Assembly (NCBI GenBank): GCA_043228905.1
Contig: JBHGNT010000016.1
Span: forward strand, 17,670,001-17,734,000
DNA: 64,000 nucleotides
DNA from: Azolla caroliniana
Taxonomy: Eukaryota > Plantae > Polypodiophyta
Direction of reading: 5' to 3'
The notes below the pieces were generated by a model. That model was not told the origin of the DNA. It saw only the letters and a program-made list of their open reading frames with translations, and searched no databases. Both the position numbers and the translations under genes were made by a program. Numbering within the stretch: position 1 is the stretch's first letter; each line of letters begins with the position of its first letter. This document shows positions 15,853 to 54,904 of the stretch, piece by piece.

Positions 15853-15884
15853 GTGGATGCGCCAAAGTGGTTATCGGGCATGAC
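15853..15884 (+). pseudogene. 5' half of a tRNA-Ser copy, ending at the left inversion breakpoint
   Basis: GTGGATGCGCCAAAGTGGTTATCGGGCATGAC, then an abrupt switch to a CT-rich tract. Confidence 0.8.
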
Positions 15885-16686
15885 ACTTCTTTTTCTCAAT
15901 TCTTATTGATCCTAATTTGTTTCATTCTTCTTCTTCCATTGCATCTCCTTGATTCTTCTTCTTTTACTCTATGTACTTCCTTTTCATGATGTTTCTTCCT
16001 ACTAATACCCCTTCCCTTCTTCTAATGAGTTCTTAATTCTTATTATTCCATCTACTTCCCCTTCCCCTCTTCATCATCATCTACTTCCTTCTTCTGTTTC
16101 TTTCTTTGTATTTCCTTCTCCTTGCTCCCTCTCCTTTCTGGTTCGTCTTCCTCTACTTCATGCAAAGTTCTAGTCCATGAGAGAAAACAAATTTCATAAT
16201 ATATTTGCGCCTGTAAAGCTCCATAAACTGGATTGCAGCCCCATAAATGCTACTTTCGAGATGATAGTTCCAACTACTTAGCATCCATAAGAGAAAAAAC
16301 TTGCAATTTCAAATTAAAGAAAAGGTTTTTCTAGGGTTGAAATTGTGAAAATCACTCCCATTAGAACAAATTAGATGAAATTTCTGTAAACAAATTAGAA
16401 CAATCTTCAACATATGAAATGCTCAAGTTTTACTAGAGATTAGAACAACGAATACTTTTTGCCACAATAAGTGAGAATAGTCAAGTTCGACAAACAAAAT
16501 TTAAATATGTTTAGCTTCCTCCTGAGTTAAAGTTGTGTTGTAGAAGAAAAAATAGAAGAATGGTTTCTGTGAAACAAGTTTTGCATAAGAAGAAAGAAAA
16601 AATTGGGAAATATTTTTTGAGTGAAAAGCCCTAAGTGCGCACTTCTTCCTTGCGTTCAAAGTGCGCACTTAACTGAACGGTTACTG
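15885..16686 (-). mobile_element. Left part of a non-autonomous Tc1/mariner-pogo-like element (MITE) split by the inversion
   Basis: Minus-strand TIR CAGTAACCGTTCAGTTAAGTGCGCAC preceded by TA (16687-16688); partner TIR ends at 42186. Confidence 0.7.
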
Positions 16687-19624
16687 TATAAGTAGGATGT
16701 AACGCTTGGAAAAACAAATGAGATTGATAATAACATGCAATTGACTTTAAATATCCAAAAGTTCCTCATCTAATGGTGCATGTATCAATAATGCATTACT
16801 CCTGGAGAGAACTTGTGAGAATTGTCGAAGAAGACCTCTTCTTCGTTGTGCATTAGTTACTCCATACATACAATGAATGATCTTAACGTTTCGTAATGTG
16901 ATATCCCATGCTTTAACTCCTTTAAGATTCACTTCTTGTGAATTTTTTTCCAAAATTTGCTCCATGAGAGAGTCAAAGTGAGGTTGAAGCAAGAGAGACG
17001 AGTTAAAGCGTAATGGAGGCTTTCCAAGTAAAGACTTATACATGTCAATTGCATGACTACAAACCTCCAAACAAATAGGAAAGTGATCTGAAGTTCCGAC
17101 ATATTGTAAAACTGTCATACGAAGTGATGTCGGTAAAAAATAATCATTGTGCATCACTTACATTCTATCTAACCGACTCCATGTTTGTCTATGTTGAGCG
17201 GATTGGAAAGTAAAACCTGGATCATTCCCATGCAACCATGTCCAAACATCCAACTTTAGAACCTCCATAGCCAATGAATCCCAAGCAAGTTGCTCAGGAT
17301 CATCCATGATTGAATGTTTAGACGTAGATTGAGATGTATCAACACACATGTTAAAATCACCCATAAGTAATCTTGGATGACCGACACATAGGGTTTGACG
17401 GAGTGAGCCCCATAATGCAATACGTTGGGTGGCTTGGTTAGGGGCATAAATCCCAACCACCCACACAACCTCGCCAAAAAAAGTGATTTCTAGAACCAAA
17501 AACTGACCATAAGGATCATTATGCACCACATGAGGATAATATTTATCCCCCACGATTAATACCACACATGAATAATTATTATTAAGATCTCCTGCATAGA
17601 ATGATGAATATCCATGCAAATGAATTGTGGATACTGCTAACTCATGACACTTATGCTCAACTGCACATAATACATCCCATTCTTTACTTAGCAAGGTTTT
17701 CCATAATATATACTTCTTATGAGGAGAACATGCCCCTCTCACATTCCATGTGACCATTTTCATTCAATCAACAATGTTATGGGTGCACTTGCTCCTTCAG
17801 AGTAATAGATGTCATGAAACTAGTCAAAGCATGTTCTAATGCTGCATATGGATTTTCATGCACCACATCCTTAGGGCCGTCTATCGAATTTTTTTGTTTA
17901 GGTTCTCCCGCTTGACGAAAACCTCGAGAATTCGATGAATTTACAACCCATCCCAATGAATCAAATTGAAGGTGAAGGGGTAATCCCTTATCCCTAAATT
18001 GTCTTTGCCAAGGAACTTTTCGAGGACCCTCCCTAGTTCCTCAATTACCTTTCGAAGTAGTCTCACGAGTAGTGGGCAAATTATTATGTTGCATATTCAT
18101 TGATTTCCCCTTCGACTTGCCCTTAACCTGATGCCAATCCTTTTCAACAACAACATCACTACTAGTTCTATCAAATGGTTTCCCCCCCTTATCTATAACA
18201 ATCAAACTTTGTTTTTCCATATCTATAGATTGAGCTTCCTTATTCTTAGGGCCCAAACCTTGACGTGAAACCTCGTAATAACCCGCTCTAGATGATGTTC
18301 CTTCATCCATAACAACCACAATATCTGACACACCAACATCTCTCCCAACTCCTTCCTTACCATTCCCTTCATTAGGAACCTCTATAGTTGAAGGATAATG
18401 ACGATGACATTCCGCCATAAAGTGACCCCATTCACCACATCCAAAACAATGACCTGCAATTGTCTCCCACTTCAATTTAAAACAAAGTCTTTTCATTCCA
18501 GGAGTGTTCATACGCACCCATCCTGGCCTCTTACGACTTGTATCCCATAACACACAAAATCTACACTTATTTGTAGCATTTGCATGTGGAGATACCAACG
18601 CTTTACCCATTTCACTCATCAACTCTGGTAAAAGTGGCCATAAAAAAGAATGCTTACAATCCACTATTACCCAAATGGGGCATTCTTGTTTTAACAAAGC
18701 ATGATAGTCCACAAAGGGGGACCATTGCATTACATGTACCAATTGTTTATAAAAAAACACACGAACTTTAGCCAACAATACACTTCGATGTTTCGGTGAA
18801 CGGAACACTACATCATAAAACCCTCGTGGTCCTGCATATATATTTTCAACACAATTTGGTGACTTGATTGTTTTCAACCATTGTTTAATCCAATTAATGT
18901 ATGGGAGTTTCCCGGTAAAAAACAATATAACCGCACAATTATAGAATACATCAAAAGATTGCAACACTACCTTAACATCAACTTCTACATCATGCAAATC
19001 CTCCTCAGTGCATTCTTTCGCGACATTTTCATTTTCTTTCACAATATCAGACAACAAGATATTGACAATTCCCCATAAATTATCCCAATTACAATGATCC
19101 TTGTCAACCTCATCTGCATGGATTACTTCGGCCTTTTTTTTGTTTTTTTCTCATACATTTCCTCAATACCCTTAAACCTCTTAGAGCTTCCAATGTCTTC
19201 CCTTTCACAATTACAATCAACCATCACATTACTCTTTTTTGGATCAATTGTTTCCATATCAATGTCCCCCACAATTTGAGAGGAATTCATGTTCATATCC
19301 ATTATTCTTAATGTGATAGTGATCCGGGATAAAAACAATTTTCCATGAACAAGAAAGATAACTGGAACTCACCCAGTTGAAGAGATCGAAGATAATGAAT
19401 ACAATAGAAGACCCACAATGTGTGTTGAGTATGTAGATGGCAACAACACAAGATTCCTTATTTCTATCGCTGCGTCTCACACAGACTATCAAATTTAACT
19501 TGCTATATCTCGTTACGAAGCTCTAATCGAGGGCTTTCTAACGCATGTCTTTATGCTCAATTCCGTTATTGATAGAGAGCGCAACATAAAAACAATTTCC
19601 TTTCTTCTTCCCCTCTCCACTTTT

Positions 19625-19625
<1 letters not shown>
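16687..19625 (-). mobile_element. L1-type LINE-A, 5' half (5' UTR, ORF1 with CCHC knuckle, APE endonuclease)
   Basis: ORF1 18041-19057 with CFGCGEWGHFMAEC; ORF2 start MKMVTWNVRG, IYAPN, MGDFN, SRLDR, SDHFPI; (CT)n tract lies immediately upstream. Confidence 0.9.

Positions 19626-19692
<67 letters not shown>
19626..19692. repeat. (CT)n microsatellite, i.e. (AG)n on the LINE-A strand
   Basis: Direct reading. Confidence 0.95.
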
Positions 19693-19701
<9 letters not shown>

Positions 19702-20899
19702 TCAAAAAAATAGTTGATCTTTGAAATACAATTAGTAAACTTATCGTTCATAGACGTGCTTCATGTGATCATAATATAGTCTACATGGTTAATATGAGAG
19801 TCATGGTGGTAAGTACTAAAGCATTGTCAAATTGAAACATCAACAACACATTGTATTATTAATTGTAATGGTTCATGTCTTCAAACATCTGGGAATGGAC
19901 ATACGTTGTCAAGATACTAGTAACAACTGTCTAACTTGGAGAATGGAAGGTACTATGAAATGGAGAACATGTGCCACAATCCCAAAACCAAAAGATGGGA
20001 AATTAGAGCAATATTATTATTGTGTATGTGTTGCGATTTCTGCTATATCCATTTCAGCTTTGGGGAGGTAGTATTTCAATAATCTAATGGAATGAAATGG
20101 TGAGTATACAAGGGAAATTTCTATACCATCATTTGGGGGTTAAGAGATCAACTCCGCGTTCCATCATGATTCTAGAAATGAGAAGGTCGCCAAGAGAGTT
20201 TTATGTCATTCAAAGAGTTTACAAATACATATTGAAAGCAATGACAAAGCCTCATAGAGGTTTCATGGGAAATTAGATAGTAGCCATAAAAATCCACAAA
20301 CAAAAATTTCTTTCATTTAGTGGGGCTTCCAACATGGTTTGAATTTTGACATGTTAATGGATATTTGGATATGCAATAGAGGACAGAAAGGAACATGAGA
20401 AGACAAGCCCGTGTTTTACTTGGTTGCATTGTAAGCCCTCCACATGAAATGGAGAACAAGCTAGCATAAATCTAAAGTTTTGAGAATTATTGCCAATATC
20501 ATGTTTGTTGTCTTCAAGATCAATTCCTTTCGATTTTTGTCTTTTTATGTTTCATTTCCTTTGCCTAGTGGGAAGTTATTATATTACCAACGTAAGGATT
20601 TGGATTTAAGGCCTAATCTTCACTCTGCTTTATTGGACCATATATTTTTCCTAATTTAGGAGATGTTACTATAAAATGTAGGGGTTGAAGTATATTTCAA
20701 GGTTTGCAAAGCAGCAGAGCGGCGTGCCAGTCCCTGGTGGAGGTCTGCGGTGTGGGCATCTCACCAAGAGGCCCGACACATGAGGTTTGACCCGCGCCAG
20801 TAGGCAGCGGAAATGGAGCCGGAGTAGTAGAAACGTGGGGGTCCAGAAGCCTCCCACTGCTCATTTCGACACAGACGCCTCTCCTCCCCGTCGCTACTG

Positions 20900-21362
20900 A
20901 ATCACCCTCCTCCAGTTCGAGGAGTCAATCATTTAGGGTTTCCCCTCACCCCACTATTCGAGGAGTGACCTCCCCCCCAATTCGAGGAGTGGGACAAACA
21001 TCCACCCCACCCACACTTTGAGGAGTGGGACACCCACTCCCCCCCTATTTCGATAGAACCCACCAACCACAGTTCACGGAGTTGGGCCCCCACTCCTGTA
21101 TTTCGATAGGTCGAGCGTTAGGGTTTCGAGTAGTCGTTTGGTGCGGCCTATGCGGCCACCATTTTGTAATCGTTCATTTCGTTTTAATACATCTTGTTGT
21201 TCATCTTGTCTCCATCTCCCTCTTGTTCGATCTAGTCTCTTGTTCATTCTTCTTCTTCTTGAGCAAAGCTTCCATTCCCTGTCTGATTCCTTCTCCTCCA
21301 CTCCTTAGTCCAAGACCCCCGTGGTCCCGCCCTTCTCCACGCACGCGCGTAGCAACGCGACA
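20900..21362 (+). mobile_element. 3' portion of a gypsy-family LTR inserted at the start of LINE-B ORF1
   Basis: Ends in AAGACCCCCGTGGTCCCGCCCTTCTCCACGCACGCGCGTAGCAACGCGACA, the same terminal cassette as the LTRs ending at 45576, 51777 and 52620; left end not resolved. Confidence 0.6.
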
Positions 21363-23454
21363 GCGCCTTGAGAGAATAGCGGTCATATGCCGCGTGATGG
21401 GATCACGACCAAACAGAGGGTTGTTGCGAGATATGTTGCAAGCTAAATTTCATTCACAACTACGTGGTATAAAAGAAGTCCAACCGCTTGGTAAAGGCTT
21501 CTATCAAATCATACTAGAAGACAAGGATTCTACAACGAACCTCATAGCACTTTCCCCCTACCAGGTCTGAAATACATGGTTGTTCATGCGTAAATGGACA
21601 CATGGTTTTAACCTAGAGAAAGCCACACAACAGGATGATTCCATGAAAAAGGTAACAATGTTGTTTCCTGGACCATCCTTAGAATACAACATGTTACTTC
21701 CTACTATTGACAACTCCTTTGGTATGATGCTGGATGTGGAACTAATGCTAGTAGACAGGCTAAAGAAGCACCTAGGCCCCTCTATCCGCCTCTTGGTGCA
21801 GGACATCAATAAACTTCCCTCCAAGATCCTCATTCCCGGGAAAAACGGAATGCGGATTGAACAACGCATAGAAGTGATTGGCGCACCGGGGCAATGTTTT
21901 GCATGCAAAAAACTTGGTCATTTAAAAAAGAACTGCCCCACAAGACGTATTAAAGATCCTACAAAGGAGAATCTGGAAGGTCAGGACACCATAAGACATC
22001 AGAAGCCTCCCCCACCACGACCCGACAAGGCTGTGATGGAATGGTGAGTGGTGGAAAAAACCCATGTCCTTCGAAAAACATCATCGGCACAAAATCCTCC
22101 ATCGCCTATGAGCCCCAATCGTTTTGATCTACTATAAGAGCTCCCCCCCACAGACGAGCATTCCCCTAGTTCTTTCTTAAGCCCCAAGGAACGGCCTAAG
22201 GTGACACCAAGCACACAAGAGAAAGTTCTCGTTAAAGCTTACAAAACAGGGAAGTGCAGACGAATAAGTCATGTAAAGACCTTAATAAGGAGCTTGAGTG
22301 GAACAGCACCCAATGCAGAAGCAACAAACCAAGGCAGAAATGTGAATGTCATGCCTCAAATCATAATCATCCCGAACACAAATGAGTGTGCTTCCTCTAG
22401 CCAAGACCTTGAACCACACCCACAAAACGCCTTGAAATGGCTAGGTATAGGGCTCAAGACAATGGAAAAAATAAGGGTACATGTATCAACAGTACACAAT
22501 AACGAAGCTCCGACGACCTCAATCTCCTTTCCACTCTTGCTTCTGACTTAGGAAGATTGATCGAAATCCAAGATTAAAGATACGTTATGTAGCCAAGCAG
22601 CGTGCTTTGTAGCACAAATAAGAGATGAAGAGCTCATGAACGAACTAAAGCAACATTGGCATAACACTGAATTCTGGTGCACCATGGATGAAGAGGACCC
22701 TCATCTTTGCCACATCCACCTGCGGACTATCATAGACACCCAACTAACTCCAAGCTTTGTCTATTTCTATGAGAAGCATGAAGGGGCGATTGAAGCTCAC
22801 AGGATAGCCCACAAACTCCACTCATGGATGTGGATCACTATTCCATCCCTGGAAATGACTGGATGTCTAAATGGTGAGTGCTCCCCACTCACGACCTGCT
22901 GTACAAAGCACCAAGAACAACTGACAATCTCCCACCCCATTCCATGAGTATGAAGATTATAACATGGAATGTGCAAGGTCTCAGAAGTAGACTAGACCAG
23001 CAAAATAGATGGAAACTGAGAAGGGATCTTGAAGGATATTTACTAGGGAGTGTTGCTGACATCATCATGTTGCAAGAACACCACCTTGATAGCACACAAT
23101 TAAAGGAAGTTGGAGACCTTCTACCAGGATCATGGCGAATGATTTGGGAGCCAACAATTGGGGAGGATGGAAATCATGGTGGTATTTGCACTTTGATTCG
23201 AGAACATCTAGCCCCCGGGGGCTTCACTGTCAAAACTTGTATGATAGCACGTGAGTTCATCAAAAGGGGTTTAAATTAGCCATTGAGGTATAGAATGTAT
23301 ATATATAAGGGTATTAATAAATATTTGAAATATATTTTTACATAAGGGTATTATCAATTATGCTAGAAAAAAATTTACATAAGCCCATGAAATATTAGAT
23401 ATTTTAATGAGATAGTAAAGAATTATTATGCAAACAATACTCGAATTTGGAGTA

Positions 23455-23704
23455 GCATATATACATGTATTCTTTCATACATACATACATACATATGAAT
23501 TCATGCATATATACCTACATTCAAACATTACATCTATGAATATGTACATACATACATTACACCAATTTATACATGCATACTGACTAAACATAAATATATG
23601 TACAAATATATATTACCATGTGTAAATGTTTACATACACATACATAAATGCATTGCATATTACATATATAAATACATGCATACATATATACAATATAATC
23701 AGCC

Positions 23705-23780
<76 letters not shown>

Positions 23781-26152
23781 GTGCGTATACTACACATTCT
23801 TACAAACATATTTTATAGAGTACATATTATACACATATATCATTATACACACAATTATATGCAACTACATATATGTATACATACATACCAAACACAAAAA
23901 ATATACATAAATAAATAAATTACGTATTATATATACATACACATACACATACAAATTAATACATAAGATTACATATTATATGTATTACAAATTTCCACAC
24001 GTACAAAGTTACATATATTATATTATATATATGTATATATACATACACGCACATGCACACACACACACACACACACACACATAAATAAATTAGATATTAC
24101 ATATCATATAATCCATACATATTAACAATAAACAAATTTACATACACATACATACATACATTACATATATACATATATTACATATGCACATACATATTCC
24201 ACACATCACCATATATATAGATTATACGAAACCATGCAAACTACATTACTTACATATATACACACACATTAGATATATGTATACTTACACATACATCAGA
24301 TATATACATGCATATTACATACATACATCCATATACGAGCCATACACATACTAAACATGAAAATATCCCGAAAATATACATACATAAATACATTACATAT
24401 ATACACATACATACATTCATACATGTACATACATATCACCATATACACACATATATACACATACATACATTAAATATATGCATACATATTACAAACACAC
24501 ATCCATGCACATTGCCTCATGTACATTGACATATGCATATATGCAGTGCACACACCCACACACATCCATGCACATTGACTCGTGTACATTGACATATGCA
24601 CATATGCACACACATACAGACATTACATATGTAAATACATATTCCATATATATGCATACAATATACATACACACACATTGGATATATGTATACTTTTACA
24701 CATACATTGGACATATGCATATATATTATGTGTATATTGCAAACATACATCCTTATATGAGCCATACACATACTAAACACGAAAATACCCTGAAATTATA
24801 CATGCATAAATACATTACAAATTACATATATACACATACGTACATGTACATGTACATACATATATTCATTTATCCATTGCTACATTTATATACGTACATA
24901 TGCCTACAATGTTACACATATAAATTTTACAAACATAGATCCATACACATATATACATACATTATATACATGCATACACATACATACATTGCATATGTAT
25001 ATTACATACACATACATACATACATTACATATGTACATAGATATCATCACATATGCACACACACACACACATGGTCATACACACTATAAAAGTACATATA
25101 TACATACATTAGATGTATATATATACATAGATATCATGCACATATTACAATCACACATCCATACACATTGAATTGTGTACATTGACATATGTATATATGC
25201 ATACACATATGTACATTCGTACATGGACATATATGTATTCATTCATACATACATACACGTTCCATATATTAGATATATACACATATGTACATTCATACAT
25301 GTACATATATATATTCATACATACACTAAATAGTACATATATACATACATATAGATATTATGCACATATTGCAATCACACATAGATACATACATACCATA
25401 TGCATATATGCATGCACATATGTACATTAGTACATGGACATACATATATTCATTTATACATTGCTACATATACATGCATACACATACATTAGATATTTAC
25501 ATAGATATTATGCACATGTTACAATCACACATCCATACACATTGAATCATGTGCATTGACATATGCATATACACATACATACACACATACGAACATACAT
25601 ACATTACATATGCATACACACATGTACATTCGCTTATGGACATACATATATTCATTCATACATTGCTACACGCATATACGCACATATGGCTACAATGACA
25701 CACGTATAAATTTTACAAACATACATCATTCCCTGAAAATATGCATAGACAAATACATGTTATAAATCCGTACAATGTTACACATATATACATACACATG
25801 CCTTCCATGGTGATACATGTATAAATGTTACAAACTTACATCCATCCATCTGTACATACATACATACATACATACATACATACATACATACATACATACA
25901 TACATACATACATACATAAACGCAAGCACAAAACACATACCTCACATACTCACATGCCATACACACGATACAATATGTACATACATACACACATGCCATA
26001 CATACAATATACACAATACAATACAATATGTACACACACACACACACACACACAAAAGACATCTGCATATACACACCTACACATGCACATATATACAACA
26101 CACACACACACACACACATAACAAATACATACATGTACATATAATACATACA
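23455..26152. repeat. 2.7-kb degenerate (TACA/TA/CA/GT)n low-complexity tract with internal duplications
   Basis: Direct reading; (GT)n at 23708-23783 and (TACA)n at 25853-25917. Confidence 0.9.
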
Positions 26153-27220
26153 ATCGACGCTAATTGTTTGAAAAAACGAGGGAAGATTACAAATTTACAT
26201 ATGTACATACGTGTGTTATGTTTTTGCAGAAAGTTAAGGGGAGAGAGAGAGAGAGGGAAATCATGAAGCGATTGAGAAGGGATGGACACAACGCGGCCAT
26301 GGCAAATCGAGATGGAGCCATGGGGGTGGCCTACCAGCAGGTGACTATGAGTATATCAATGTGATTGTGAGTATATCTATGTAGTGATCCGTCTTGCCAT
26401 CTTGAAACAGATTGCCCGAACACCTGAAACAGATTGTCAAGACCGTGTGCGCATCTGCGAAGAGGTCATTGAAAGATCAGGGCACCCACCTCCTCCCGCA
26501 TCACGCCCAAAAGCTCAAAAGACGATCTCTTAGGGCTCGGACTAGGGTTAGGGTTCATTCACGCGCAGGCCGATCTCCAGGCCGATCTCCAACCCGTTGC
26601 GATGAAGCAAGAAATGGATATCTCCTTCTTTAAGGCTCAGGCTCGAGCAGCCGCCACGATGTTGTCTTCATGTGCGTTTGCGGCCACTGTATCGACAAAG
26701 ACTGGTTTCGATCGAGACCCACAAGCAGCTGCCATGGAGGCAGCTTTATACGGCCCCAAGACTGCCGATGCGCTCGGGAAAGTGTCATCGCGTTCGGGCC
26801 TCTCGGTGGCCCTCAAGCTGCAGAATTCGGGAGTAGTGTTTCAGTCTTGATACGATTGCTAATACTATGGTTGGGAAGTATTAGAAAATGGATCCAGTTC
26901 ATCTGGCCATGATTAGGGTAAATCCAACCAAAGCCATGTGGTTCAACAATCACCATCCCATCATGGATATGTATGATAGAGAGTTTTTTGTATCGTATTT
27001 TTGGTTGTACAAAAGAGGAACCAGCCCTAGGCCTAGCCCTAACTTGATCTCTCTCCATCCCCACCCCTGTTAGGGGAAAATAGAGACCTGCATTTTTGGT
27101 TTTGTGAAGAGAACTTTTTCCTTGTCTTCCATAGTGAGTAAAAAAGATTGGCCACATATGGAATGCTTTTGCTTCTTGTTTTTTGTAGCAAGCGTTTTTT
27201 GGGTGAGTAATTAAGGATAT

Positions 27221-27251
<31 letters not shown>

Positions 27252-28121: not shown

Positions 28122-30786
28122 GTTTTCTCTAATTTCCTCTAGTGTAGTTGGCTTAGTGTTCAATTTATTATCTGACAAATTGTTTGACCTAGAATTTGAC
28201 TTATTTTTCATGAAATTTAGGTGGAAGATGTGATTTGGAAATGCCATCAATGGTATATATTAGATATTTTATGATACCAACCAATGGATTAGTCTAGAAG
28301 ATCTGGGAGCATAGATGAATAGGTGTTTGAAGTGGACACCCTTCATTATGAGATTAATAGCTGAAATCCTCAAAGTAGAGGAGTATATCATCAATGGCCG
28401 AAGTGTTGGTAGAATATGTATGGATATTAGCGATGGATGCAAAATTCTGGATCATAGAGAAAACATTGAAATTTGATCCATCAAGTCATTTGTAACATCT
28501 TCTGCTCCGTTACATGGCATAATTATAAAGACACAATGGAAAGTGTAAGAAGTCAAATTACTCTGACAAGAAAAAAGTTAGAACATAATCAGTGTTAGTG
28601 GTCTTAAATTTCAATGATGGTTTAGGTCAAATCCATATCCTATGTTCTAGTAAAGCTTAATTATTCTCATTTATAGTTTGTATTAAACTGAGAGTGGGTG
28701 GTAAGTTTCAGAAAGGACTTTTCCTCAAATGAAACTTTTCTAAAGATAAATTAGGAATGTTCCAATGAAATGTTAACCTTCAGTATTTGTTCTGGGGATC
28801 TTAAACGTGTTTTTCAGCATTGTGTATTGAGATTCTCCATCATTCTTAGTCTGAAACTCTTTTCTTTGTTGCATATATAGATGTGGAAAGATGCCTAGGT
28901 TGGAATTTCAGTTTGTAAGCATAATTATCTTTCAGTTTCATGATAAGGTTGTAAGCGTACAAGAATTACTCTACTGTTGACAAAGGTTCCCCTTATTGGA
29001 TTTTATAGATGGGTTTCCAAAGTGTGGATCTACCTCCAATCCTAAGCACATGATCTTTGTTCACAAGAGCGATTCCATAAGACATGCAAAACATGACATT
29101 TGTCATACTCTGTCAAACCTCATTGGCATTTATAACAGGTATTGTTAGACTATTTTAATTGCTTTAGTAATACATTTTTTGCATATTTAAAATTTCACAA
29201 GTCCGCCCATAGATACTCCAATCTTCTATCTTGCAGTCCAACAATGGACCTTGGAAAATTGAATGTAGCAATGCCCAAACCAGAAAAGTAGTGGCACTGA
29301 TACTAAGGTTTGAGACGCCATATCGAACCATACATTAGTGATTTTGGCGACACTAAGATGTGAAGCCTAATGACTTGATGTGCCCTTACAAATTGCCATT
29401 TTTAAGCGAAGAAAAGCTTGATTTTTTAGCAGGTATTTTTGAAAAGAAAAAGGGCATTGTTCATCTATCCAAATGTTTTATTTGTTTGATTATGAACAAT
29501 GATATGTAGAAGGAATGTTACAATCCTAAAGTTCACATATTATTACTAGGGAAGTACAGATGACATCATCAATAAAGAGAGAGCGGCTTCAAAACAAATT
29601 GTGAAAAAGTATTTTCCACAAATTCAAAATTCCCAAACTCTTCAAATGAGTTCTTGTTTGAACAAACCATTGGGCTCATCAAATATATCAAAAGATGTAG
29701 AACAGATTTTGCCACAAAGAAGATTACGTTCCACATATTGCTCAGAGTCCTCAAAGTCTTCATATTAGCTCTGCTTTGGTACCACAATTGGGCTCATCCA
29801 ATGTTGGAAGATGCAGAACACATTTTGAAATATCAATCCTATATTAAGGCAAGGATATATGAAAACTTTATAGCACCTATTTTCCCTTCATCATGTTGGC
29901 AAACATACAATGGAAGGGTTGTCAGAAGAGACAATTAATCATACCATGCAATAAGTTTCAGAGGTTCACCATGAATATATATTAAGTACGAGGAAATCTA
30001 TTGTTAATTATATATTTCAGATTTCGGCATTGTCTATCCTGATTTAATTATCTTAAAAGCATTTCTATTATATTATAAATCGTTAAGGCAATGTCAAGAC
30101 TCGATTCTAAAAGAGTAATTTCCTACCCACAATGGGATAAGTTAGGGCAAGATAGACTTGGACTTACAAATATAGAAAAGGTCCTTTAAGTAATAACATC
30201 ATATTTTGCAAGATCCCACATGATCTAGATTTTAATACCAAAGTGGTGAGTTGTTTTCTTGAATGCACATGGGGGCAATGTTAAGATCATTGAACATACT
30301 ACAACCATTAACTTTAGAGGTTGCATATGCATAATACATAGATACATACACACATGCCATAGATCCAAGATATATAACGGATACAATAGAATAAATACGT
30401 AAATAAACATGGAATATAATATAATACATACATTCAATATAATACATACATATGAACATATGCAATACAACACAATATGTACATATACACACATGTATAA
30501 ACCATAAATGTGTCTTACGTAAGGGCATTTAAAATGAGTTGTTGCCAAAATATATATTGACACTAAGGGGTATTTTTATTAACCATTTTTTTATAAAAGG
30601 GTATCTAAAATAGCAAAAACCATACGTATAAGGGGTTTATAAAAGATGTCATGAACGCACGTGATACAACCTCTTTATATATAGTGGAGCCCCCGGGATC
30701 TAGCCCAAGGCTTAATACACCAAGAATCACTTATACCTGGTAGGGCACATTTTTGCACGTTGGCCATCCAAGGGCAACGATGGAAT

Positions 30787-31347
30787 TGTTGAGAAATTGT
30801 TGCGGAATATAAATCACAGTAAACGGATTACGCGTTGAAATACAAATTGCAGAAATACAGAAAGACAAGATGAACAGAAGTATACACAGAGGTTTACGTG
30901 GAAACCCTAAAACGGGAAAAAACCACGGGAACAGATTCTTCACTATACAAAATAGTGGATATAGAATAGTGAGAAGATTACAACACTCTCTCACGAGTGC
31001 ATCAGCCGCACAGGGCTCTTCGTGTCTGCTGTTACACACACATCTATGGCGCGTCTCTACCTTCCTCTCACACACTCACTCTCACCCTCTCTCGCTTTCT
31101 GTACACACTATTCTAACACAACTAAAAGTTTTCCCTAGTTGCATATATACTTATGCAACTTTCTGGTTATTTACATACGTGGCTCACATGGGGCTCACAT
31201 CTAGACTATTTACAATTATAGTCTCTCGAGTTGGCTATGTACACGATTCCGGTTCCTCATCAACTCGGCTCTTGTTTTCCGACTCTTCGACTGTCGGCTT
31301 TCCAAACAGTCGGATCATCCTCCCACTGGAGAGACATACACCCAATA
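30787..31347 (-). mobile_element. Solo LTR (copia-type, reversed) inside the LINE-B endonuclease
   Basis: TGTTG...CAATA termini; TSD GGAAT/GGAAC; removal restores RWNYMNVYAPN. Confidence 0.8.
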
Positions 31348-34300
31348 GGAACTACATGAATGTTTATGCTCCAAATAGTAGAACAAAAAGAGCAACATTC
31401 TGGGACTGCATCCGCCTACAAGTAGTGGGTGCGGAAGAGTGGTGCATTGGAGGGGATTTTAATATGATCGAATCCATTCACGATAGCTCCAACAACAACC
31501 CCATAGTTCTACAAGGAAGGGAACGTAAACAATGGGAGAAGCTATGTGTCCACCTTAACCTGCGAGACATCTGGCATTCTGCCAACTTCCAACAGAAAAG
31601 GGATTCTCTCCTATTCTCCCGATCAGACGGGCGGAATAGTGGACCCACCTTATCTCGCATTGACCGCATTTATGTGGGGGAGGCTCTAGAAGCGAAGGGA
31701 GGGTGGTGTCGCATAACTCCAGGCACGACTTTCTCTGACCATTACTTGATAGCTGGTCATTTTCAATTGCACCGAAAATGGGGCCCATTCCAGACTCGCA
31801 TCCCACACACTATTTACACACTTATAGATGTGAAGGACCAACTATCCAGCCAATGGTCATTACCTGTCAATGGCTCATCAGCATCAGACAAACTTTTAGC
31901 TAAATTAACAAGAGCTTCTACTCTCCTACATGAGATTGTCAAGACCAGAAGCAAGGATGCTTAGGAGAAGTGACAGAGGACAAAACGGGGATTAATAGCC
32001 TTACAACGACTCCAATAGAGATACTCGTCCTGTATTTGGATCGTAGGACAAGTCGCCACGGCCAAACAGGAACTTAGCATGGCGGAAAAGGAAATATATG
32101 ACATGGAGTTTCATGGAAGCATGGCGCGATGGATTCGAGTAGGGGACAAAACCACAAAGGAATTCTTCCGCTCCAAAGGCCCGAGGCATGCTAGAACTGT
32201 GATGCACAACCTCAACCGAGACGATGGAACAACCACTGAGGATGGCGACGAAATGAGGAATATTGCCACAAAATATTATAGCCGCCTACTTACCGAAGAC
32301 ATTATAGCTACAGGGGAAGACATAAGAGAAGATATTATCCTCCAAAGCATACCCGAGAAAGTCACGCCGGAAATGAATACCTGGCTCGTGCGTCCCCTAT
32401 CAATCATCGAGATATGGGAGGCCGTCATTGATTTAGATGTCGATAGCTGCCCCGGAATCGACGGTCTCACCCCGCACTTTTTCACATGCCTTTGGGGCAC
32501 TATTAAAGAAGACCTCCTCTAGGCATATGAGGAGATCATCACCTCTGGAAGCATTCCGGAGGAATTTGGACAGGGGATGATACATCTCATTCCTAAAAGT
32601 GGTGGGAATACCAACGACATTAGCAAGTGGCGGCCCATTACTCTTCTCAATACTGTCTATAAGTTGCTCGCAAAAATCATGGCACGCGGTTTAACTCCAC
32701 TTCTCCCTCAACTCATTCATCCATCCTAGACAGGTTTCATTAGAAATCGGAGCATCCTAGACAACCTCTTCTCATTCTGGGAAGCAGTAGCCTTTGCCAA
32801 GCGTACCAACAACAAGGTAGCAGTGGTGCTACTAGATTTTGAGAAAGCATATGACGGGGTATGCTGGAACTTTCTAGAAAGTGTGATGAGGAAACTCGGC
32901 TTTCAAAAGACATGGATCAAAGGCATTGCAAGATTTTATAGGAATGGTAGTAGTTGCGTTTCGTTGGCAGGTGAAAGGGGCCCCTTTTCCGAATATCCCA
33001 ATTTGTACGGCAGGGATGCCCACTAGCTCCATCCTTATTTCTATTATACGCTGAAGCACTCTCTTGCTTTCTCAACTCGCAGCATCTCAACCTACGTGGT
33101 CTTCCCGTACCTCATTCTCACCAAAGCATCATGGATATAGAATTTGCAGATGACACAACAGTCTACCTGCAAGGGAACTTGGAAAACCTCCAAAAGCTAG
33201 AAAGTGGGCTAGCTGTATTTTGCAAGAGATCCAACGCCATGATCAATTGGCACAAATCCTGCGCAATATGGCTCTCTCAAGAAACACATCCGGCGTGGCA
33301 CCCACACCCCGCTTTCAAATGGATCAATCAAGGAGCTAACACCAAATATTTGGGTTTCCAAATTGGTTTCAACATACCGTCGGAGACTATGATTGCACCC
33401 GTTATCCATTCCATTCGACAAAAGTTGATACATTGGAGCTCGAAAAAATTGTCGTTAGCGGGTCGCATCATAGTGGCAAATTAGGTACTACTCGCAACAA
33501 CATGGTACAATCTATCATGCTGGACAATCTGCAAGGAAAGTATACATCAGATTCAACGATTGGTCCGCAATTACATTTGGTCTGGTAAGGAAGACCATGT
33601 AGCTTGCGCCAAGGTGGCGTGGCCTATACTCATAGCGCCTTAGTCGAGAGGGGAATTGGGTCTTATTGATCCCCTTTCACAATCAAAAGCCTTACTTGCC
33701 AAATTTGTGGTGCGGGACTCCAACCATGAAATGATTGTTGGAAAATGCTATTGAGGTTATGTTTCGCTTACTTTAGGCCATGAAAAGGGGTCAACTGGGC
33801 CCCCCAAACGGGATGGATTCTAAACATGGATCTCAAACCTAGTTTCTCCCGCCAATTGGAGGATAGATTCAGTGCATCCATATGGAAGGCATGGTGTGAC
33901 ATTCGTCGAGGGCTCAAGTGTGATCAACTGAGATCCAAACCTGCCTGGCTCAATCAACATATCCTATGGAACCCATGTCTCAAGGATGCATCTAATCAAC
34001 TACTGGGATCATGTAAGGGGTTGTCATGGGGATACATTGCAGAAGGTCTAGGAAAAAGTATAGAATGTTGGCGACGGTTTATGTCAATGCCACTACAAGA
34101 TCAAGCGAACATACTCCATGGAATCAGGGGCGGATGGACTATGAGATCGGAAATCATTAACGCTCTACTGATTAGGGAATCTGCTACTCAAAGGACGACA
34201 ATGGAGAAATGGATAGGCCATGAGGAGGAGGGATCTTTGATCCCGAGAGGTAGGGGACCACCAGACAGACTCGAAGGCTCTGAATTGCGAGACACTGAGA

Positions 34301-35685
34301 CACCAACACAGAATAACGCAATTTGAGTACTTGCGTATACTGGTCATAAATGGATTGTAGATCCTGATCCGATCAACGTACAACCCGATTGGCATATATG
34401 TACTCATGAAAACACATGGCTACATAAGGTCAGTTGGGACCCTTTGCAATGGACATGGTGTGATCCCTACGCGGGGCAAGGAAGCAAACCCATCTCTTTC
34501 TTCCAATTCACAACTAGATTGGGTCGCCACATTCTAGTTGCTCAAGCTGCCCGAGAACCGGCTACTGTGAAGGTTTGGCACACATTTCAAGTTCCTTCCA
34601 CAATAATCACCAAGTTTTAGCAGGAAATCTGGAAACAACAACACGCGAGGCGAATTACCACGTTCCAATGGCTATTAATACATAAATCCCTACCGGTGGG
34701 AGATGGCAACGTGGGAACCTTAGCTCTCCTAATTGTGTAGAGTGCCCACATGCAGTAGAATCCATACGACACGCTCTGTGGGACTGCCCAACGTCCCATA
34801 GAATATGGCCGGGGGTTGGCCGCTTGTTGCAATTATGCCAGGTGCAAGGCTCAATCAAGTGGGGAAATATATGTTGGCTATCATGGCAGGTTGCAATTGG
34901 TGGATACGAGCATCAGGAGGAGGGGATGACTTTGGTGATAAAAGCACAAGAGGTCCTTTTCTCCTCCAGCAGCAATGTCCACTCCATTCCTCTTAATGCC
35001 AAATCTCAAGAGGTGTTGGAATTGGTCAACCCAATAACCCTTTGGATTCTATGGAAACAACCAAACCACACATCCAACAAGGTTACTGCAAGAGATATGG
35101 GGTGAAATTGTAGCCACTCTGAAGAGCCAATATGATGACCTTAAGGGCGGCTCCGAGGGAGTTGAAAGACAACGAATAGCCTTCATCCAACAATGATCGT
35201 CCTCTCCCTTTCTTGAGTTCGTGGGCATCCACATAAGATAGAACTATCGCGTCCCTTTAGGGATTTGTACATAATCGTCTCATTTGTAAAATTTTATAAC
35301 TAATGGAAGGAGTTTTGTTTTGGAAAAAAAAGAAGAAAAAGAAAATAAAAATAAAAATGTAGGGGTTGAACACAAGTCCTTTTGATTTGCACTTAACGAC
35401 CTTATAGTTTAAGGCACAACTGTTTATCTCTCTCATTTTGAGGAATCAAAAAGGGAAACTTCCAACATTATTTTTGTTTTGAAATCAAACATCATCTAAT
35501 AAGGCTAAGTTGCTTGTCTTCCAAAATGGTTTACCTCTAACGTGTCAAATTGTTTGATTGATTTATATGAAACTCGATGATGTTAAACAATTATATGGAA
35601 ATATAAATTTATGAATGTAATTGATGATACATTGGAGATGTTAAACAGACATAAATGGCCAGTAGACACATCGTACATTTATTTT

Positions 35686-35766
35686 CGTGGATAGTAGGAT
35701 TCAAACCTACGCGAGCGAACCCACATGATTTCTAGTCATGCCAGATAACCACTCTAACACATGCAC
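35686..35766 (-). pseudogene. Degenerate tRNA-Ser(AGA) copy
   Basis: Full-length alignment to 41472-41552, with mismatches in the stems and T-loop. Confidence 0.85.
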
Positions 35767-36491
35767 ATGAACTTTGACCACTTTGTTTTAAAATCAAATA
35801 TCATCTATAATGCTAAAAAGGTTGTCTCCCCTACAATGGTTTAACTATAATCTGTGAAATTATTTGATTGGTTTATATGAAGCTCACTAATGTTAAACAA
35901 CAATAAATGAAATAAAAATTTATAAATGTGATTGAAGATAGATTGGGGACGTTAAATAGACATAAATGGCAACTAAACTCACTATACATTCATTTTCATG
36001 GTTTAACTATAATCTGTGAAATTATTTGATTGGTTAATATGAACAGGGCCTAAAATTGACGGGTTAGTCTTAAAGTTTTTTGACGGGCATTTTTTAAAGA
36101 TGTATGTCATATGACAGAAGATTGCAAAAACTTAACATGTCATTTGACATACAGATTTTAGACATGAAAAGCTCTATGTAATGTTACATTGTTATATATT
36201 TTATTGCTATAGAAAGTACACAAATGAACATAACTACCTCACAAAGATAATGAAATACGTAAAATAAATATCATGTTTATGTTTTAAAGCCAAAGCACAA
36301 GCAAGATATTTATCAATAATCATAATCTATTCTTGCAAAGTGGATACAATAAGCATAAAAAAACATATAAATTGAATACTTAATCATCATATATTCCTTA
36401 AAGCCCAAAAAGGTACAAAAATGCTTATCATACCGTACAAAAATGCTTATCATACCGTAGCTCATCATACTAAGCATTGTGCGTTATGTGT

Positions 36492-38690
36492 CTATTTCAA
36501 TGGTACCATCCTTCTCTCTTTCTCTTCAAACCAAAGGTTAAATATATCCCTCCAACAAATGTTTGATATGTCTTGAGCATTTAAGGATATAAACATCAAA
36601 GCATCTAACGTTTCCAAAGATAAACCATTTCTAATATCATTTTTTATGATATTTTGACGTGAAAAGCCTCGTTCACATGCCGCGGTACTAATAGGAATAG
36701 TCATACATATTTGCCACAATTGCATCATACCCGGAAATAATTGCCACCAAGATTGTGCTTTGCGACAAATATCCCATGCATCGTGCATTGCTCTTCCTTT
36801 CGCAATTCTTACAAGCATATCAACAAAATCTTCTCGTTCATTTAAGCATCTTTTCATGTCAACAATTTGGTTGTCAATATTAAACTTCCCAATAAGTTTG
36901 TGCAACCATTCATTCGTCTTTTTCTCTCTTTCATTTTCCTCAATGGGATATAAAGATGGATTAAACAACTTGACAGCATTGAAAAATATGACATCTGGGA
37001 AACGATTGTTTAAGGCATCAATAACATGTTGGACAAAGGTTTTTCCAATGCTAATGCATTCATCCAAACCACCATTTTCCACATTACCATGAAACATATT
37101 CAAGTTAAAATCACTATTTTCATTCTCACTATCAGAACCACTTATTTGTCCTCTTGATCGTTTTGCTACCTTCTTTGGGTTTGGAATTGGTATAAACTTT
37201 AATGGATGTGAATGAGTAACATTATCACATCCAATATATATGAGCATGCCACCTTTCACATTAGATAGAAAGTTTGTAAGCAACATAGACCCGGTACCAA
37301 ATGTCTCACAAGATAAATAACGTCTTCGAAGTTTCTCATGGATGATATCCAAGTGAACACCAAGCATAGTTACATCCATTAATTCCCTTTGGAACACCTC
37401 ATTTAATTTATTCAATTCCACAAGAATATCTGCCAATAGATGTAACATAAATTGCACTTGAAATATAGTGGCATACTCGTACCATTTTTTCTCATGTTTT
37501 TGCCATTGTTCTAAAATGGCGGGCATAAGTGTAACTAGCCTCTCCATTACTTGGCCTCGAGATAACCATCTTATGAAGTGAATTTGAAGCACTTTCAAAT
37601 CACCCTTACTATGTTGTTTCATTATTTCTTTTAGCTCATTGTGTCTATTGGTCGACTTTCCCAACCAAGAGTATACTTTATTTGCAAATGAATCAAGGAA
37701 GCTAAAAACATGTGCATGAGACATTATATATGCATCTTTTATGGCAAGTGCTTCACGATGTGCAATGCAATGCACTCCCAAAATATTAGGCATTGTGGCT
37801 TGAAACTTAGAAATTGCACCATTCTTCTTCCCTACCATAGATGATGCCCCATCACTTGCAAAAGCCACAAGTTTTTTTAAATTTAAATTGCTCTCTAATA
37901 TGAAAGCATTGATAGAATTGTAGATAGCTTCCGCTCTCGCATTTTCCACCGAAAGAAGTCGCACAAATTTACAATGTGGCTCTCCTTTGCCACCTTCACT
38001 TAAGTACAAGATATAGATAATCAAGTGCTTTTCCAATGTGCGAACTGTGCTTTCATCAATCAAGATAGAGAAAAATGGACTTCCACGAATTTCATCATAC
38101 AAGTGATTCCTTGTGTGGTTCTTAATGGCCATTAAGAATTCCCTTGCAGAAATAGCATTAGCATAAGCACCATATTCATTTGAGGCAGGGGCATTTGGAG
38201 TACCAAGTTCTCTTTGTAATTGAACTTGTTTTGCATATTTCTCTAACGGAATATCATTGCAAGCATAAAAATGGACCAACTTCATACATAAAACTATCCT
38301 CTGATATTCTGAATGCATCATTTCTGAAATTTTTTCATCCATTGGGCCTTTCACATTTGCATTTCTATTTTGTATCTTTGCATAATGCATAGCACTTGCT
38401 ATTATGTGGTCGGATGATTTTGAATGTTCATTTAGTGAAGACAATTGTAGGCTTTGGGATCCACCATCCGTAAAAACATTGTTTTTTCTAGCATCTTCGC
38501 ACCAAATGCATTTTATTTTATCTTCACCTAGTAAGGACTTTGTCACATATGCCCATGGGTGGAGCAAAGTCCACTGGTTTCGCCACTTTCTTTTTTGTTT
38601 ATTGGAAGAGGATCTAAGCTCATTTGTGTTTGTAATAGCCTCTTCCTCATTATTGGGAGCATCATTAATATGTGGCCCCTTGCTAAACAT
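36492..38690 (-). CDS. hAT transposase (ZNF862-like, with hATC dimerisation domain); N-terminus probably extends to 38733 plus an upstream exon
   Basis: Uninterrupted 732-aa ORF: Zn-finger-like CIWC..H..S..H, IDEST, ASDGASSM, HCIAH, RWLS, TIPISTAACERGFS..RNGLSLETLDALM. Confidence 0.92.
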   Translation of the reverse strand: MFSKGPHINDAPNNEEEAITNTNELRSSSNKQKRKWRNQWTLLHPWAYVTKSLLGEDKIKCIWCEDARKNNVFTDGGSQSLQLSSLNEHSKSSDHIIASAMHYAKIQNRNANVKGPMDEKISEMMHSEYQRIVLCMKLVHFYACNDIPLEKYAKQVQLQRELGTPNAPASNEYGAYANAISAREFLMAIKNHTRNHLYDEIRGSPFFSILIDESTVRTLEKHLIIYILYLSEGGKGEPHCKFVRLLSVENARAEAIYNSINAFILESNLNLKKLVAFASDGASSMVGKKNGAISKFQATMPNILGVHCIAHREALAIKDAYIMSHAHVFSFLDSFANKVYSWLGKSTNRHNELKEIMKQHSKGDLKVLQIHFIRWLSRGQVMERLVTLMPAILEQWQKHEKKWYEYATIFQVQFMLHLLADILVELNKLNEVFQRELMDVTMLGVHLDIIHEKLRRRYLSCETFGTGSMLLTNFLSNVKGGMLIYIGCDNVTHSHPLKFIPIPNPKKVAKRSRGQISGSDSENENSDFNLNMFHGNVENGGLDECISIGKTFVQHVIDALNNRFPDVIFFNAVKLFNPSLYPIEENEREKKTNEWLHKLIGKFNIDNQIVDMKRCLNEREDFVDMLVRIAKGRAMHDAWDICRKAQSWWQLFPGMMQLWQICMTIPISTAACERGFSRQNIIKNDIRNGLSLETLDALMFISLNAQDISNICWRDIFNLWFEEKERRMVPLK

Positions 38691-38769
38691 GCTCTTTATA
38701 GACTGTTGTTGTGCTTTGTCCTTTGTTTTCCCCCTTAAAAATATTCAAATAATAGACATCTAAAAATTT

Positions 38770-40680
38770 ACTAAAAGTATTTCATTTCAATATAATACAA
38801 ACAATCAAGTTATTGTTTAGGTAATACAAAAACTATATTGTATAATATTACATAATGTGATAGATGGTAACTTACATATTTAAAATGTTGAAGCTTGAGC
38901 CTAGCCTTGAAGGATGTCTTCTTCTATTGTTGCTGCAGAATAACTACATATAAAATCAATCATTTTTAAGTGGATTGTGGAACAATAACTTGTTACCCTA
39001 GTAGTACTCACTCACCTTTTTTTTTTCTTTCCAAAAAACACTCACATATTTTCTATGCTAATAAGTTATTACTAACCTTAATTTTTTAATAAAGCATAGA
39101 TGATAGTAATGACTTAACAATAATAGAAACAATGGTAAGTAAAAGTTTTAGTTTTAACTTAAAACCTATGTACTAAAAGTATTTCATTTCAATATAATAT
39201 AAACAGTTAAGTTATTGCTTAGATAATACAAAACCTATATTGTATTATATTACATAATGTGATAGATGGTAACTTACATATTTAAAATGTTAAAGTTGGA
39301 TGGATGTATCATGTATTCTTTTATTGTTGTTGCTGAACAACTATATGTAAAATCAATCATTTTCAAGTGAAACAATAACTTGCTACCCTAATAGAAGTAC
39401 TTACTCACCTATTTTCTATATCAATAAGTTATTACTAAGTTCTAACCTTAGTTTTTTAATAAAGCATAGATGATAGTTATAACTTATTAGTAATAACTTA
39501 ATAATTATAAAAAGGATGGCTAGTAAAAGTTTTAGTTTTAACTTAAAACTTTTGTACTAAAAGTATTTCATTTCAATATAATACAAACAACCAAGTTATT
39601 AAGTAATACAAAAACTATATTGTATAAAATTAAATAATGTGATAGATGGTAACTTACCTATTTAAAATGTTGAAGCTTGAGCCTAGCCTTGAAGGATGTC
39701 TTCTTCTATTGTTGCTGCAGAACAACTACATATAAAATCAATAATTTTTAAGTGGAACAATAGCTTACTACCCTAATAGAAGTACTTACTCACTTATTTT
39801 CTATACTAATAAGTTATTACTAACCTTAATTTCTTCATAAAGCATAGATGATAGTTATTAGTAATAACTTAATAACTATAAAAAGAATGGTAACTGTTAA
39901 AAGTTTTAATTTTAACTTAAAACTTGTGTATTAAAACTATTTCATTTCAATATAATACAAACAGCCAAGTTATTGTTTAAATAATACAAAAACTATATTG
40001 TATAATATTACATAATGTAATAGATGGTAACTTGCCTATTTGAAATGTTGAAGCTTGAGCCTAGCCTTGAAGGATGTCTTCTTCTATTGTTGCTGTAGAA
40101 ATACATATGAAATCAATAATTTTTAAGTGAAACAATAGCTTGCTACCCTAATAGAAGTACTTACTCACTTATTTTCTATACTAATAAGTTATTACTAACC
40201 TTAATTTCTTCATAAAGCATAGATGATAGTTATTAGTAATAACTTAATAACTATAAAAAGGATGGTAACTATTAAAAGTTTTAATTTTAACTTAAAACTT
40301 GTGTATTAAAAGTATTTCATTTCAATATAATACAATCAGGCAAGTTATTGCTTAAGTAATACAAAAACTATATTGTATAATATTACATAATGTAATAGAT
40401 GGTAACTTACCTATTTAAAATGTTGAAGCTTAAGCCTAGCCTTGAAGGGTGTCTTCTTCTATTGTTGCTGCAGAAAAACTACATATGAAATCAATAATTT
40501 TTAAGTGGACTGTGGAAGAATAGCTTGCTACCCTAATAGAAGTACTCACCTTTGTTCTGTACTAATAAGTTATTATTAACCTTAATTTTTTAATAAAGCA
40601 TAGATAATAGTAAAATGTAATAACTTATAACTATAAGTATAAAAAGATGGTTAGTAAAATTTTTAGTTTTAAATTAAAAC
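38770..40680. repeat. AT-rich ~375-395-bp tandem repeat, five copies, inside the hAT leader
   Basis: Recurring AAAAGTATTTCATTTCAATATAATACAA..GATGGTAACTTAC..AAGCTTGAGCCTAGCCTTGAAGG. Confidence 0.9.
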
Positions 40681-41105
40681 TTAAATTAAACCTAGAGTCT
40701 AGACTCTACACTCTAGTATATTAGAATTTAAAGTATTTTTTTTTCGAAAAAAAAAGTATATTAGAGTATTTAATAAATGACTAATGTTATTGTTAAAATT
40801 TTAAATCGATTTGAGAATTTATATCATAAATCATGATTCATCATTACAATTTACAACTTACAATTTATATTTTTTATTTTAAGTGTGTTTTTAAAAAACA
40901 TATAAGATATATATATATATATATATATATATACTAGTAACTAAATACATATATATAAACTTAGAAGTTATAATATTGTCATATTAATATATATTAGACT
41001 AGACTCTTAATTCTAGGACCTAGTATATTACACACTTTATACTAGTAACTTAGTAAGTTGTAACTACATACTACACACATAGTTATAACTTATAACTTAT
41101 TAGTT

Positions 41106-41170
<65 letters not shown>

Positions 41171-41471
41171 GACATGGAAATTAGAATTTTAGCATGTCAT
41201 TTGACATGGATAATTTTTAGTGGCCTTTCATATGAAAAGGAAAATTTTATACTTTATATGTCATTTGACGGACATTTTTATTAGATGTATGTTTTTGACG
41301 GGCAAAATGGCCTTTGACGGGCATTACACCCGTCAAATTTTTGCCCTGAATATGAAGCTCACTGATGTTAAACAACAATAAATGAAATAAAAATTTATAA
41401 ATGTGATGGAAGATAGATTGGGAACGTTAAATAGACATAAATGGCAACTAAACTCATTATACATTCATTTT

Positions 41472-41552
41472 CGTGGATGGTAGGATTCGAACCTACGCGG
41501 GCAAACCCACATGATTTCTAGTCATGCCCGATAACCACTCCGGCACATCCAC
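41472..41552 (-). tRNA. tRNA-Ser(AGA), intact cloverleaf
   Basis: Acceptor stem GTGGATG/CATCCAC, D stem CCG/CGG, anticodon stem CATGA/TCATG with loop CT-AGA-AA, variable arm GGG-TTTG-CCC, T arm GTAGG-TTCGAAT-CCTAC, discriminator G. Confidence 0.93.
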
Positions 41553-41774
41553 ATAAACTTTTAGCAATGAAAAAATAAAAACTTCCAGAGATCAAATATG
41601 GCTAAGACGCTTGCTGTCCACAATGATTTTTACTATAATGTGTGAAATTATTTGATTGATTTATACCAATCTCGATTATGTTAAACAATTGTAGATGAAA
41701 GATAAATTTATCAATGTGATTTATCAATGTGATAGACATAAATGGCCTCTAGGCACATTAGATACATTCATTTT

Positions 41775-41810
41775 CGTGGATGGTATGATTCAAACCTATG
41801 CAAGCAAACC
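41775..41810 (-). pseudogene. 3' half of a tRNA-Ser copy, ending at the right inversion breakpoint
   Basis: Minus strand GGTTTGCTTGCATAGGTTTGAATCATACCATCCACG; complements the 5' half at 15853-15884. Confidence 0.8.

Positions 41811-52519: not shown

Positions 52520-52550
<31 letters not shown>

Positions 52551-54900: not shown

Positions 54901-54904
<4 letters not shown>

What the first reader, a model, noticed from the sequence alone, without database searches (positions are those of the whole stretch)
15885..41810. Cryptic ~26-kb inversion reconstructed from three split features
Seen: (a) the tRNA-Ser 5' half on + ends at 15884 and the 3' half on - ends at 41810, with only ~13 nt around the anticodon missing; (b) a purine-rich tract and its two TIRs (ending 16686 and 42186, each ..GGTTACTG|TA) lie in direct orientation but form one TA-flanked ~1.2-kb MITE after flipping; (c) the LINE-A 5' half (-) and 3' half (+) join in frame across the TA duplication as FFQALHPTY-T*SNVVHVKQGDEWIVDP. 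The breakpoints share no evident homology, so non-homologous end joining is inferred rather than ectopic recombination.
Basis: partly seen in the sequence, partly recalled or inferred. Interest (0 to 1): 0.8.

Follow-up and report, generated by a model that had tools for sequence, protein, structure and literature searches.

The report
Old inversion splitting tRNA and transposon
A 26,000-base stretch of a plant chromosome is flipped, cutting one tRNA gene copy and one small transposon in two; it likely arose by ordinary rejoining of two DNA breaks and holds almost nothing but mobile elements, so it is a clean but ordinary inversion.

Summary
The inversion is real: 15884/5-41810/1, about 25.9 kb. 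All 10 of 29 other element loci that carry both junction-proximal parts join them in the flipped order, 8 base to base. Nineteen of 19 LINE relatives run through the site with one TA, where the window has two. The tRNA-Ser(AGA) halves lack positions 33-45. A new fourth line: the flip puts all four local tRNA-Ser copies head to tail, as in the genome's other arrays. Both junctions are unique in the assembly. The right junction is bridged by single contigs in three samples from three studies, the left in one. No unflipped allele was seen. The junctions show 1 nt of microhomology, 0-1 nt of filler, a 12-13 nt loss, no duplication and no shared homology. That fits cut-and-paste end joining of two breaks; ectopic recombination and alternative transposition fail their tests. 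One correction: the three features mark only two breakpoints, because the LINE is parted only through the element inside it. No host protein gene was found within the block. This is a new member of a well-known kind; the one open angle is whether the small tRNA array is a fragile site.

The parts
15884..41811 (.). Inverted block, 25,926-25,928 bp (base 15884 and base 41811 are ambiguous)
15853..15884 (+). 5' part (positions 1-32) of split tRNA-Ser(AGA) copy b; left breakpoint
   Evidence: junction unique, bridged by an X1 contig
41775..41810 (-). 3' part (positions 46-81) of split tRNA-Ser(AGA) copy b, followed by its array flank
   Evidence: junction unique, bridged in X1, X2, X4
15884..16686 (+). 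803-bp part of the 1.18-kb non-autonomous TIR element, TIR at right end, TA at 16687-16688
41812..42186 (-). 375-bp other part of the same element, TIR at right end, TA at 42187-42188
16687..19690 (-). LINE-A 5' part (ORF1-like frame, endonuclease domain)
   Evidence: Pfam PF03372
42187..44490 (+). LINE-A 3' part (RT domain); continues at 52629-55049 beyond an 8.1-kb insertion
   Evidence: Pfam PF00078
14030..14096 (+). Decayed tRNA-Ser copy a, outside the inversion; marks the array's earlier orientation
41472..41552 (-). Intact tRNA-Ser(AGA) copy c (1 difference in 81 from the common copy)
35686..35766 (-). Decayed tRNA-Ser(AGA) copy d (8 differences in 81)
36044..41348 (-). Passenger: hAT transposon with TIRs, 8-bp TSD and an open 750-aa frame; ends 462 bp from the right breakpoint
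23214..30697 (.). Passenger: young 7.5-kb TIR element with 8-bp TSD, inside LINE-B
20710..35300 (+). Passenger: decayed LINE-B (approximate limits), interrupted
   Evidence: Pfam zf-CCHC, PF03372, PF00078
14280..15838 (.). Mosaic organelle-derived insert between tRNA copies a and b, ending 14 nt before copy b; holds a 917-bp LTR-like insertion at 14800-15716

Best explanation
The block 15884/5-41810/1 is a single inversion that cut one tRNA-Ser(AGA) copy and one 1.18-kb TA-flanked transposon sitting in a LINE, and it likely formed when two double-strand breaks 26 kb apart were rejoined crosswise by non-homologous end joining. The break in the transposon was rejoined with no loss; the break in the tRNA lost 12-13 nt. 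One junction has a single shared base, the other 0-1 added base. Order of events: LINE insertion, then transposon insertion into its TA, then the inversion (shown by nesting), before the sampled genotypes diverged (inferred). It is probably neutral: the block holds transposons and spare tRNA copies, an intact copy survives beside it, and the cut copy may already have been decaying.
For: Flipped-order adjacency in 10 of 10 element copies that carry both parts. Continuity in 19 of 19 LINE relatives with one TA against two here. All four local tRNA copies become head to tail, as in 3 of 3 hits on C7 and 54 of 54 on three C4 stretches. Both junctions unique among 9 and 13 scored matches; no N in the window. 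Right junction bridged by one contig each in X1, X2 and X4, each with 1-3 substitutions of its own; left junction bridged in X1 with 0 differences. No homology between the broken features above shuffles and no duplication at the junctions. This matches the cut-and-paste end-joining class in PMC7584159 and the two-break route in PMC10893937 (passages).
Against: The repair pathway cannot be read directly from an old junction; a replication template switch can leave the same scar. The left junction was seen bridged in only 1 of 4 runs in a truncated table. No long reads were laid, and no genome with the unflipped order was found, so polarity rests on the split features. The two tRNA parts could come from neighbouring array copies, making the loss larger than 13 nt.
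Confidence: 0.8

Rival explanations
1. A replication fork stalled at the tRNA array and switched template twice (FoSTeS/MMBIR-like, or polymerase-theta end joining), copying 26 kb backwards.
For: One break lies in a tRNA gene, and tRNA genes correlate with breakpoints in yeast (PMC2817429 passages). The 12-13 nt loss is one-sided. The array carries other scars nearby.
Against: Only 1 nt of microhomology at one junction and none at the other; no templated insert or copy-number change; the transposon is rejoined to the base.
Confidence: 0.11
2. Same inversion, but the 5' and 3' tRNA parts come from two different array copies and one or more ~300-bp units were deleted at the break.
For: Units are tandem and alike, so halves cannot be assigned by sequence.
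Against: The parts do not overlap and abut within 13 nt; a small loss is the simpler account.
Confidence: 0.05
3. A transposase made the inversion by alternative transposition (the nearby hAT or the TA-element's own transposase).
For: An hAT with an open transposase frame ends 462 bp from the right break.
Against: Such inversions have element ends and a matching target duplication exactly at the junctions (PMC8225341 passages). Here neither junction is at a TIR (375 and 803 bp inside the element), there is no duplication, and the hAT keeps its own matched 8-bp TSD.
Confidence: 0.02
4. Ectopic recombination between inverted repeats.
For: Inverted tRNA-array repeats now lie across the block.
Against: Those repeats were direct before the flip and are a result of it. 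The broken features share no more than a chance 7-mer.
Confidence: 0.01
5. Assembly error.
For: Repeat-rich region; no long reads examined.
Against: No N gaps; junction-spanning contigs from three samples of three studies at the right junction and one at the left.
Confidence: 0.01

Closest known systems
Cut-and-paste (blunt) NHEJ inversions, as classed for Drosophila (PMC7584159, passages read) and engineered in plants by two breaks (PMC10893937, passages read)
   Same: Two reciprocal junctions, no flanking homology, no duplication, small deletion at a junction.
   Different: Found without a second genome, from split repeats; small (26 kb) and without a recognised host protein gene.
Staggered-break inversions with inverted duplications (PMC7584159, passages read)
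   Same: No pre-existing homology needed.
   Different: No duplication here beyond one ambiguous base.
Ac/Ds reversed-ends alternative transposition inversions in maize (PMC8225341, passages read)
   Same: An hAT element lies near one end.
   Different: Junctions are not at element ends and carry no 8-bp duplication.
tRNA-associated rearrangement breakpoints in yeasts (PMC2817429, passages read)
   Same: One breakpoint lies in a tRNA gene cluster.
   Different: One plant nuclear case, cutting inside the gene at the anticodon loop; no enrichment was tested.
Tc1/mariner-type non-autonomous elements (Stowaway-like MITEs); family features recalled, not from a call
   Same: TA target duplication, TIRs, no coding frame, many copies.
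   Different: 1.0-1.5 kb, larger than typical MITEs; its ends start CAGT and not with the recalled Stowaway motif; no partner transposase was sought.

Membership tests
Single balanced inversion | Two reciprocal junctions that restore both broken features when flipped | tested here: met
Single balanced inversion | Junctions exist in DNA independent of the assembly | tested here: met
   right: 3 of 4 runs; left: 1 of 4 runs in the rows shown
Single balanced inversion | Unflipped allele seen in a relative | tested here: inconclusive
   No loose end at 41810 pointing to an intact copy b in the rows shown; contigs drop rare variants; no relative genome is held
Cut-and-paste NHEJ inversion | No extended homology between breakpoint regions | tested here: met
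   longest shared word 7 nt, shuffle level
Cut-and-paste NHEJ inversion | 0-few nt microhomology, small indel, no duplication | tested here: met
   1-nt microhomology, 0-1 nt filler, 12-13 nt loss
Cut-and-paste NHEJ inversion | Dependence on Ku/Ligase IV | not testable with these tools
   historical event
Staggered-break inversion | Inverted duplications at the junctions | tested here: not met
Alternative transposition inversion | Element end and target duplication at the junction | tested here: not met
NAHR inversion | Inverted repeats at both breakpoints before the event | tested here: not met
Tc1/mariner-type non-autonomous element | TA duplication and TIRs | tested here: met
   LINE relatives have one TA, the window two; TIRs
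Tc1/mariner-type non-autonomous element | Autonomous partner with a DD34-39D/E transposase sharing the TIR | not tested
   not searched
Functional split or permuted tRNA | Both parts together hold the whole tRNA including the anticodon, and are conserved | tested here: not met
   anticodon lost; 9 differences in 68 nt

The most novel reading that the evidence does not exclude
The small tRNA-Ser array is a fragile site of a plant nuclear genome. About 1.3 kb of ancestral sequence carries four separate scars: a mosaic organelle insert 14 nt before copy b, an inversion break at copy b's anticodon loop, a 162-bp duplication ending at a tRNA 3' end, and an hAT insertion. Clashes between Pol III transcription and replication would then seed plant inversions as they appear to in yeast, and split repeats would let such events be counted from one assembly.
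Probability: 0.15. Interest if true: 0.5.

Novelty: new member of a known kind. Interest (0 to 1): 0.22.

Why it matters
As one event it matters little: small end-joining inversions are common in plants and no host gene was found in this one. It is a base-exact natural junction pair with a known order of events. It also shows that inversions shared by all sampled genotypes, which comparisons within a species would miss, can be recovered from one assembly using split repeats. It would matter more if tRNA arrays proved to be enriched at such breaks in plants.

Tried and rejected
Search for a duplicated region with the older order: the C7 tRNA-Ser array shares flanks at 70-80%, but none of four window host peptides matched in 140 kb around it, and the PAM2 gene's paralogues lie on C4, C1 and C18. 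A possible host gene at 26.3-30.7 kb was rejected: it is part of a 7.5-kb element with 97-99% copies on four other chromosomes. A hairpin-cleavage model for the tRNA break was not supported: the anticodon region folds weakly as DNA (17 of 200 shuffles fold as well). X5 had no cover of the unique side of the right junction. In one search, X2, X4 and X11 showed no bridging piece in the listed rows, but repeats swamped the table, so this says nothing either way. A LINE-A target duplication was not identified, since both ends lie in microsatellites. Three look-ups of earlier findings returned nothing. Paper searches for a plant nuclear inversion cutting a tRNA gene returned 1, 0, 0 and 2 papers, none on topic; this is a limited library and no proof of absence. 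No supplements were read.

Full report
Setting. The window lies on a 19-Mb contig of a 523-Mb genome. It is a land-plant nuclear genome: it has a GT47 gene and a fasciclin gene, and an insert matching a 149.7-kb contig whose inverted repeat looks like a plastid genome (the plastid and mitochondrial labels are my inference). The window has no N.

The transposon. A search with the TIR end at 16560-16700 gave 164 candidates, 40 scored, and 29 loci besides the window's own. Ten of the 29 carry both junction-proximal parts. In all ten the part matching 41812 onward lies reversed and directly before the part matching 15884 onward. Eight show no gap at all; in two the alignment starts 4-5 locus bases away, and direct inspection shows continuity. 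The other 19 lack this internal region and say nothing on the junction. The nine intact copies measured are 1.0-1.5 kb with TIRs; most are flanked by TA. The window copy is 803+375 bp and lost nothing at the break. TA duplication and CAGT ends suggest the Tc1/mariner group (recalled); no partner transposase was sought.

The LINE. A search with 16687-17300 gave 430 candidates, 40 scored; I fetched the best 19 other loci. All 19 continue from the 16687 side into the 42187 side at about 90-95% identity, with one TA where the window has two. Five 10-kb stretches are collinear in the flipped order, and two of them show the LINE resuming at 52629 after a later 8.1-kb insertion. The LINE was therefore not cut by the inversion: it was parted because the transposon inside it was cut.

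The tRNA. Against the commonest intact copy, 15853-15884 covers positions 1-32 and 41775-41810 covers 46-81. The loss takes the anticodon and the 3' side of its stem. Base 15884 is C in both tRNA and transposon. Base 41811 is not transposon; it is filler or a G-to-A change of position 45, so the loss is 12 or 13 nt. The copy belongs to a small array with shared 3' flanks: a at 14030 (+), b split, c at 41472-41552 (-), d at 35686-35766 (-). The flip makes all four head to tail. The other arrays examined have a single orientation: 3 of 3 hits on C7 and 54 of 54 on three C4 stretches.

Not an assembly error. Each junction occurs once among 9 and 13 scored matches. Fourteen public runs hold part of the left stretch; I laid 4 on each junction, 5 different runs in all. 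At the right junction single contigs run from about 41540 to 41884 in X1, X2 and X4, three samples of three studies, one under a different organism label. They have 3, 1 and 2 substitutions and small gaps, none at the junction. X5 has no cover of the unique side. At the left junction an X1 contig spans 15756-15938 with no difference; the table was cut and dominated by repeats, so the other three runs are undecided. No sign of an unflipped allele appeared, but contigs drop rare variants. No long reads were examined.

Mechanism. Shown: reciprocal junctions, 1-nt microhomology at one, 0-1 nt filler at the other, 12-13 nt lost on the tRNA side, none on the transposon side, and no duplication. Within 150 nt of the breaks the two features share at most 7 nt, a level reached by 160-178 of 200 shuffles. 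Inferred: two breaks joined crosswise by end joining. This is the cut-and-paste class described in PMC7584159 (passages), and PMC10893937 says two breaks repaired by classical NHEJ give inversions often with junction deletions (passages). Alternative transposition needs element ends and a target duplication at the junctions (PMC8225341, passages). Neither is present, and the hAT 462 bp away keeps its own matched TSD. A template switch cannot be excluded from one junction pair.

Timing and effect. Nesting gives LINE, then transposon, then inversion. LINE-A differs from the majority base of its relatives at 3.2-4.0% of sites, which roughly caps the age. The samples differ by 1-3 substitutions in about 335 nt, and all three share the junction. 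The split tRNA has 9 differences in 68 nt against about 4 expected at the LINE's rate (P about 0.02-0.04). This is a weak, after-the-fact hint that it was decaying before the break. Copy c is intact and C4 holds dozens more. The block consists of the transposon part, LINE-A, LINE-B, a 7.5-kb TIR element, an hAT and tRNA copies. I found no host protein gene, though 19700-20700 matched only old repeats in part and was not fully explained.

The more novel reading. About 1.3 kb of ancestral array carries four scars: an organelle mosaic ending 14 nt before copy b, the inversion break, a 162-bp duplication and the hAT. In yeasts tRNA genes correlate with breakpoints (PMC2817429, passages). Against this, LINE-A also collected two insertions, a tandem repeat and a deletion, the cut copy may have been silent, and I ran no genome-wide test. 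I put it at 0.15. Four searches found no report of a plant nuclear inversion cutting a tRNA gene; the library is partial.

Verdict. Observation confirmed and interpretation supported. It is a new member of a known kind, with interest 0.22.

Noticed in passing
window 36044-41348: hAT transposon with TIRs, perfect 8-bp TSD and an open 750-aa frame (PF05699, PF25431). A twin on C8 differs at 5 of 4260 bases, so the family was recently active. It carries a five-copy ~380-bp internal tandem repeat at 38766-40683.
   Followed up: partly
window 23214-30697: 7.5-kb element with 15-bp TIRs starting CCCGGGGG, an 8-bp TSD and a long CA/TA-rich interior. Four copies elsewhere are 97-99% identical over the part searched. 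The three frames scanned had no Pfam match; the superfamily is unassigned.
   Followed up: partly
window 14280-15838: Mosaic organelle insert: two plastid-like pieces from distant places around a mitochondrion-like large-subunit rRNA piece, 91-94% identical to the sources, later split by a 917-bp LTR-like insertion (14800-15716, 5-bp TSD) that holds a 54-bp tandem repeat.
   Followed up: partly
G000:C4:4.398-4.433 Mb (L140-L142): Large one-orientation tandem cluster of tRNA-Ser(AGA) genes: 54 hits, 34 near full length, in 30 kb examined.
   Followed up: partly
window 44491-52628: 8.1-kb LTR-type element (RT and RNase H domains) with a 5-bp TSD inserted in LINE-A; the LINE's 3' end beyond it (52629-54886) is repeated in 883-bp tandem units.
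   Followed up: no
window 35836-35997: 162-bp tandem duplication of the tRNA flank, ending where the tRNA 3' end would begin.
   Followed up: partly
L066 (G000:C16:18832480-18836072): A LINE-A relative with an internal tandem duplication of about 330 bp covering the same site.
   Followed up: no
window 41839-41847: Nine bases in the GAA tract present in the window are absent from the bridging contigs of all three samples: a private insertion or an assembly slip.
   Followed up: no
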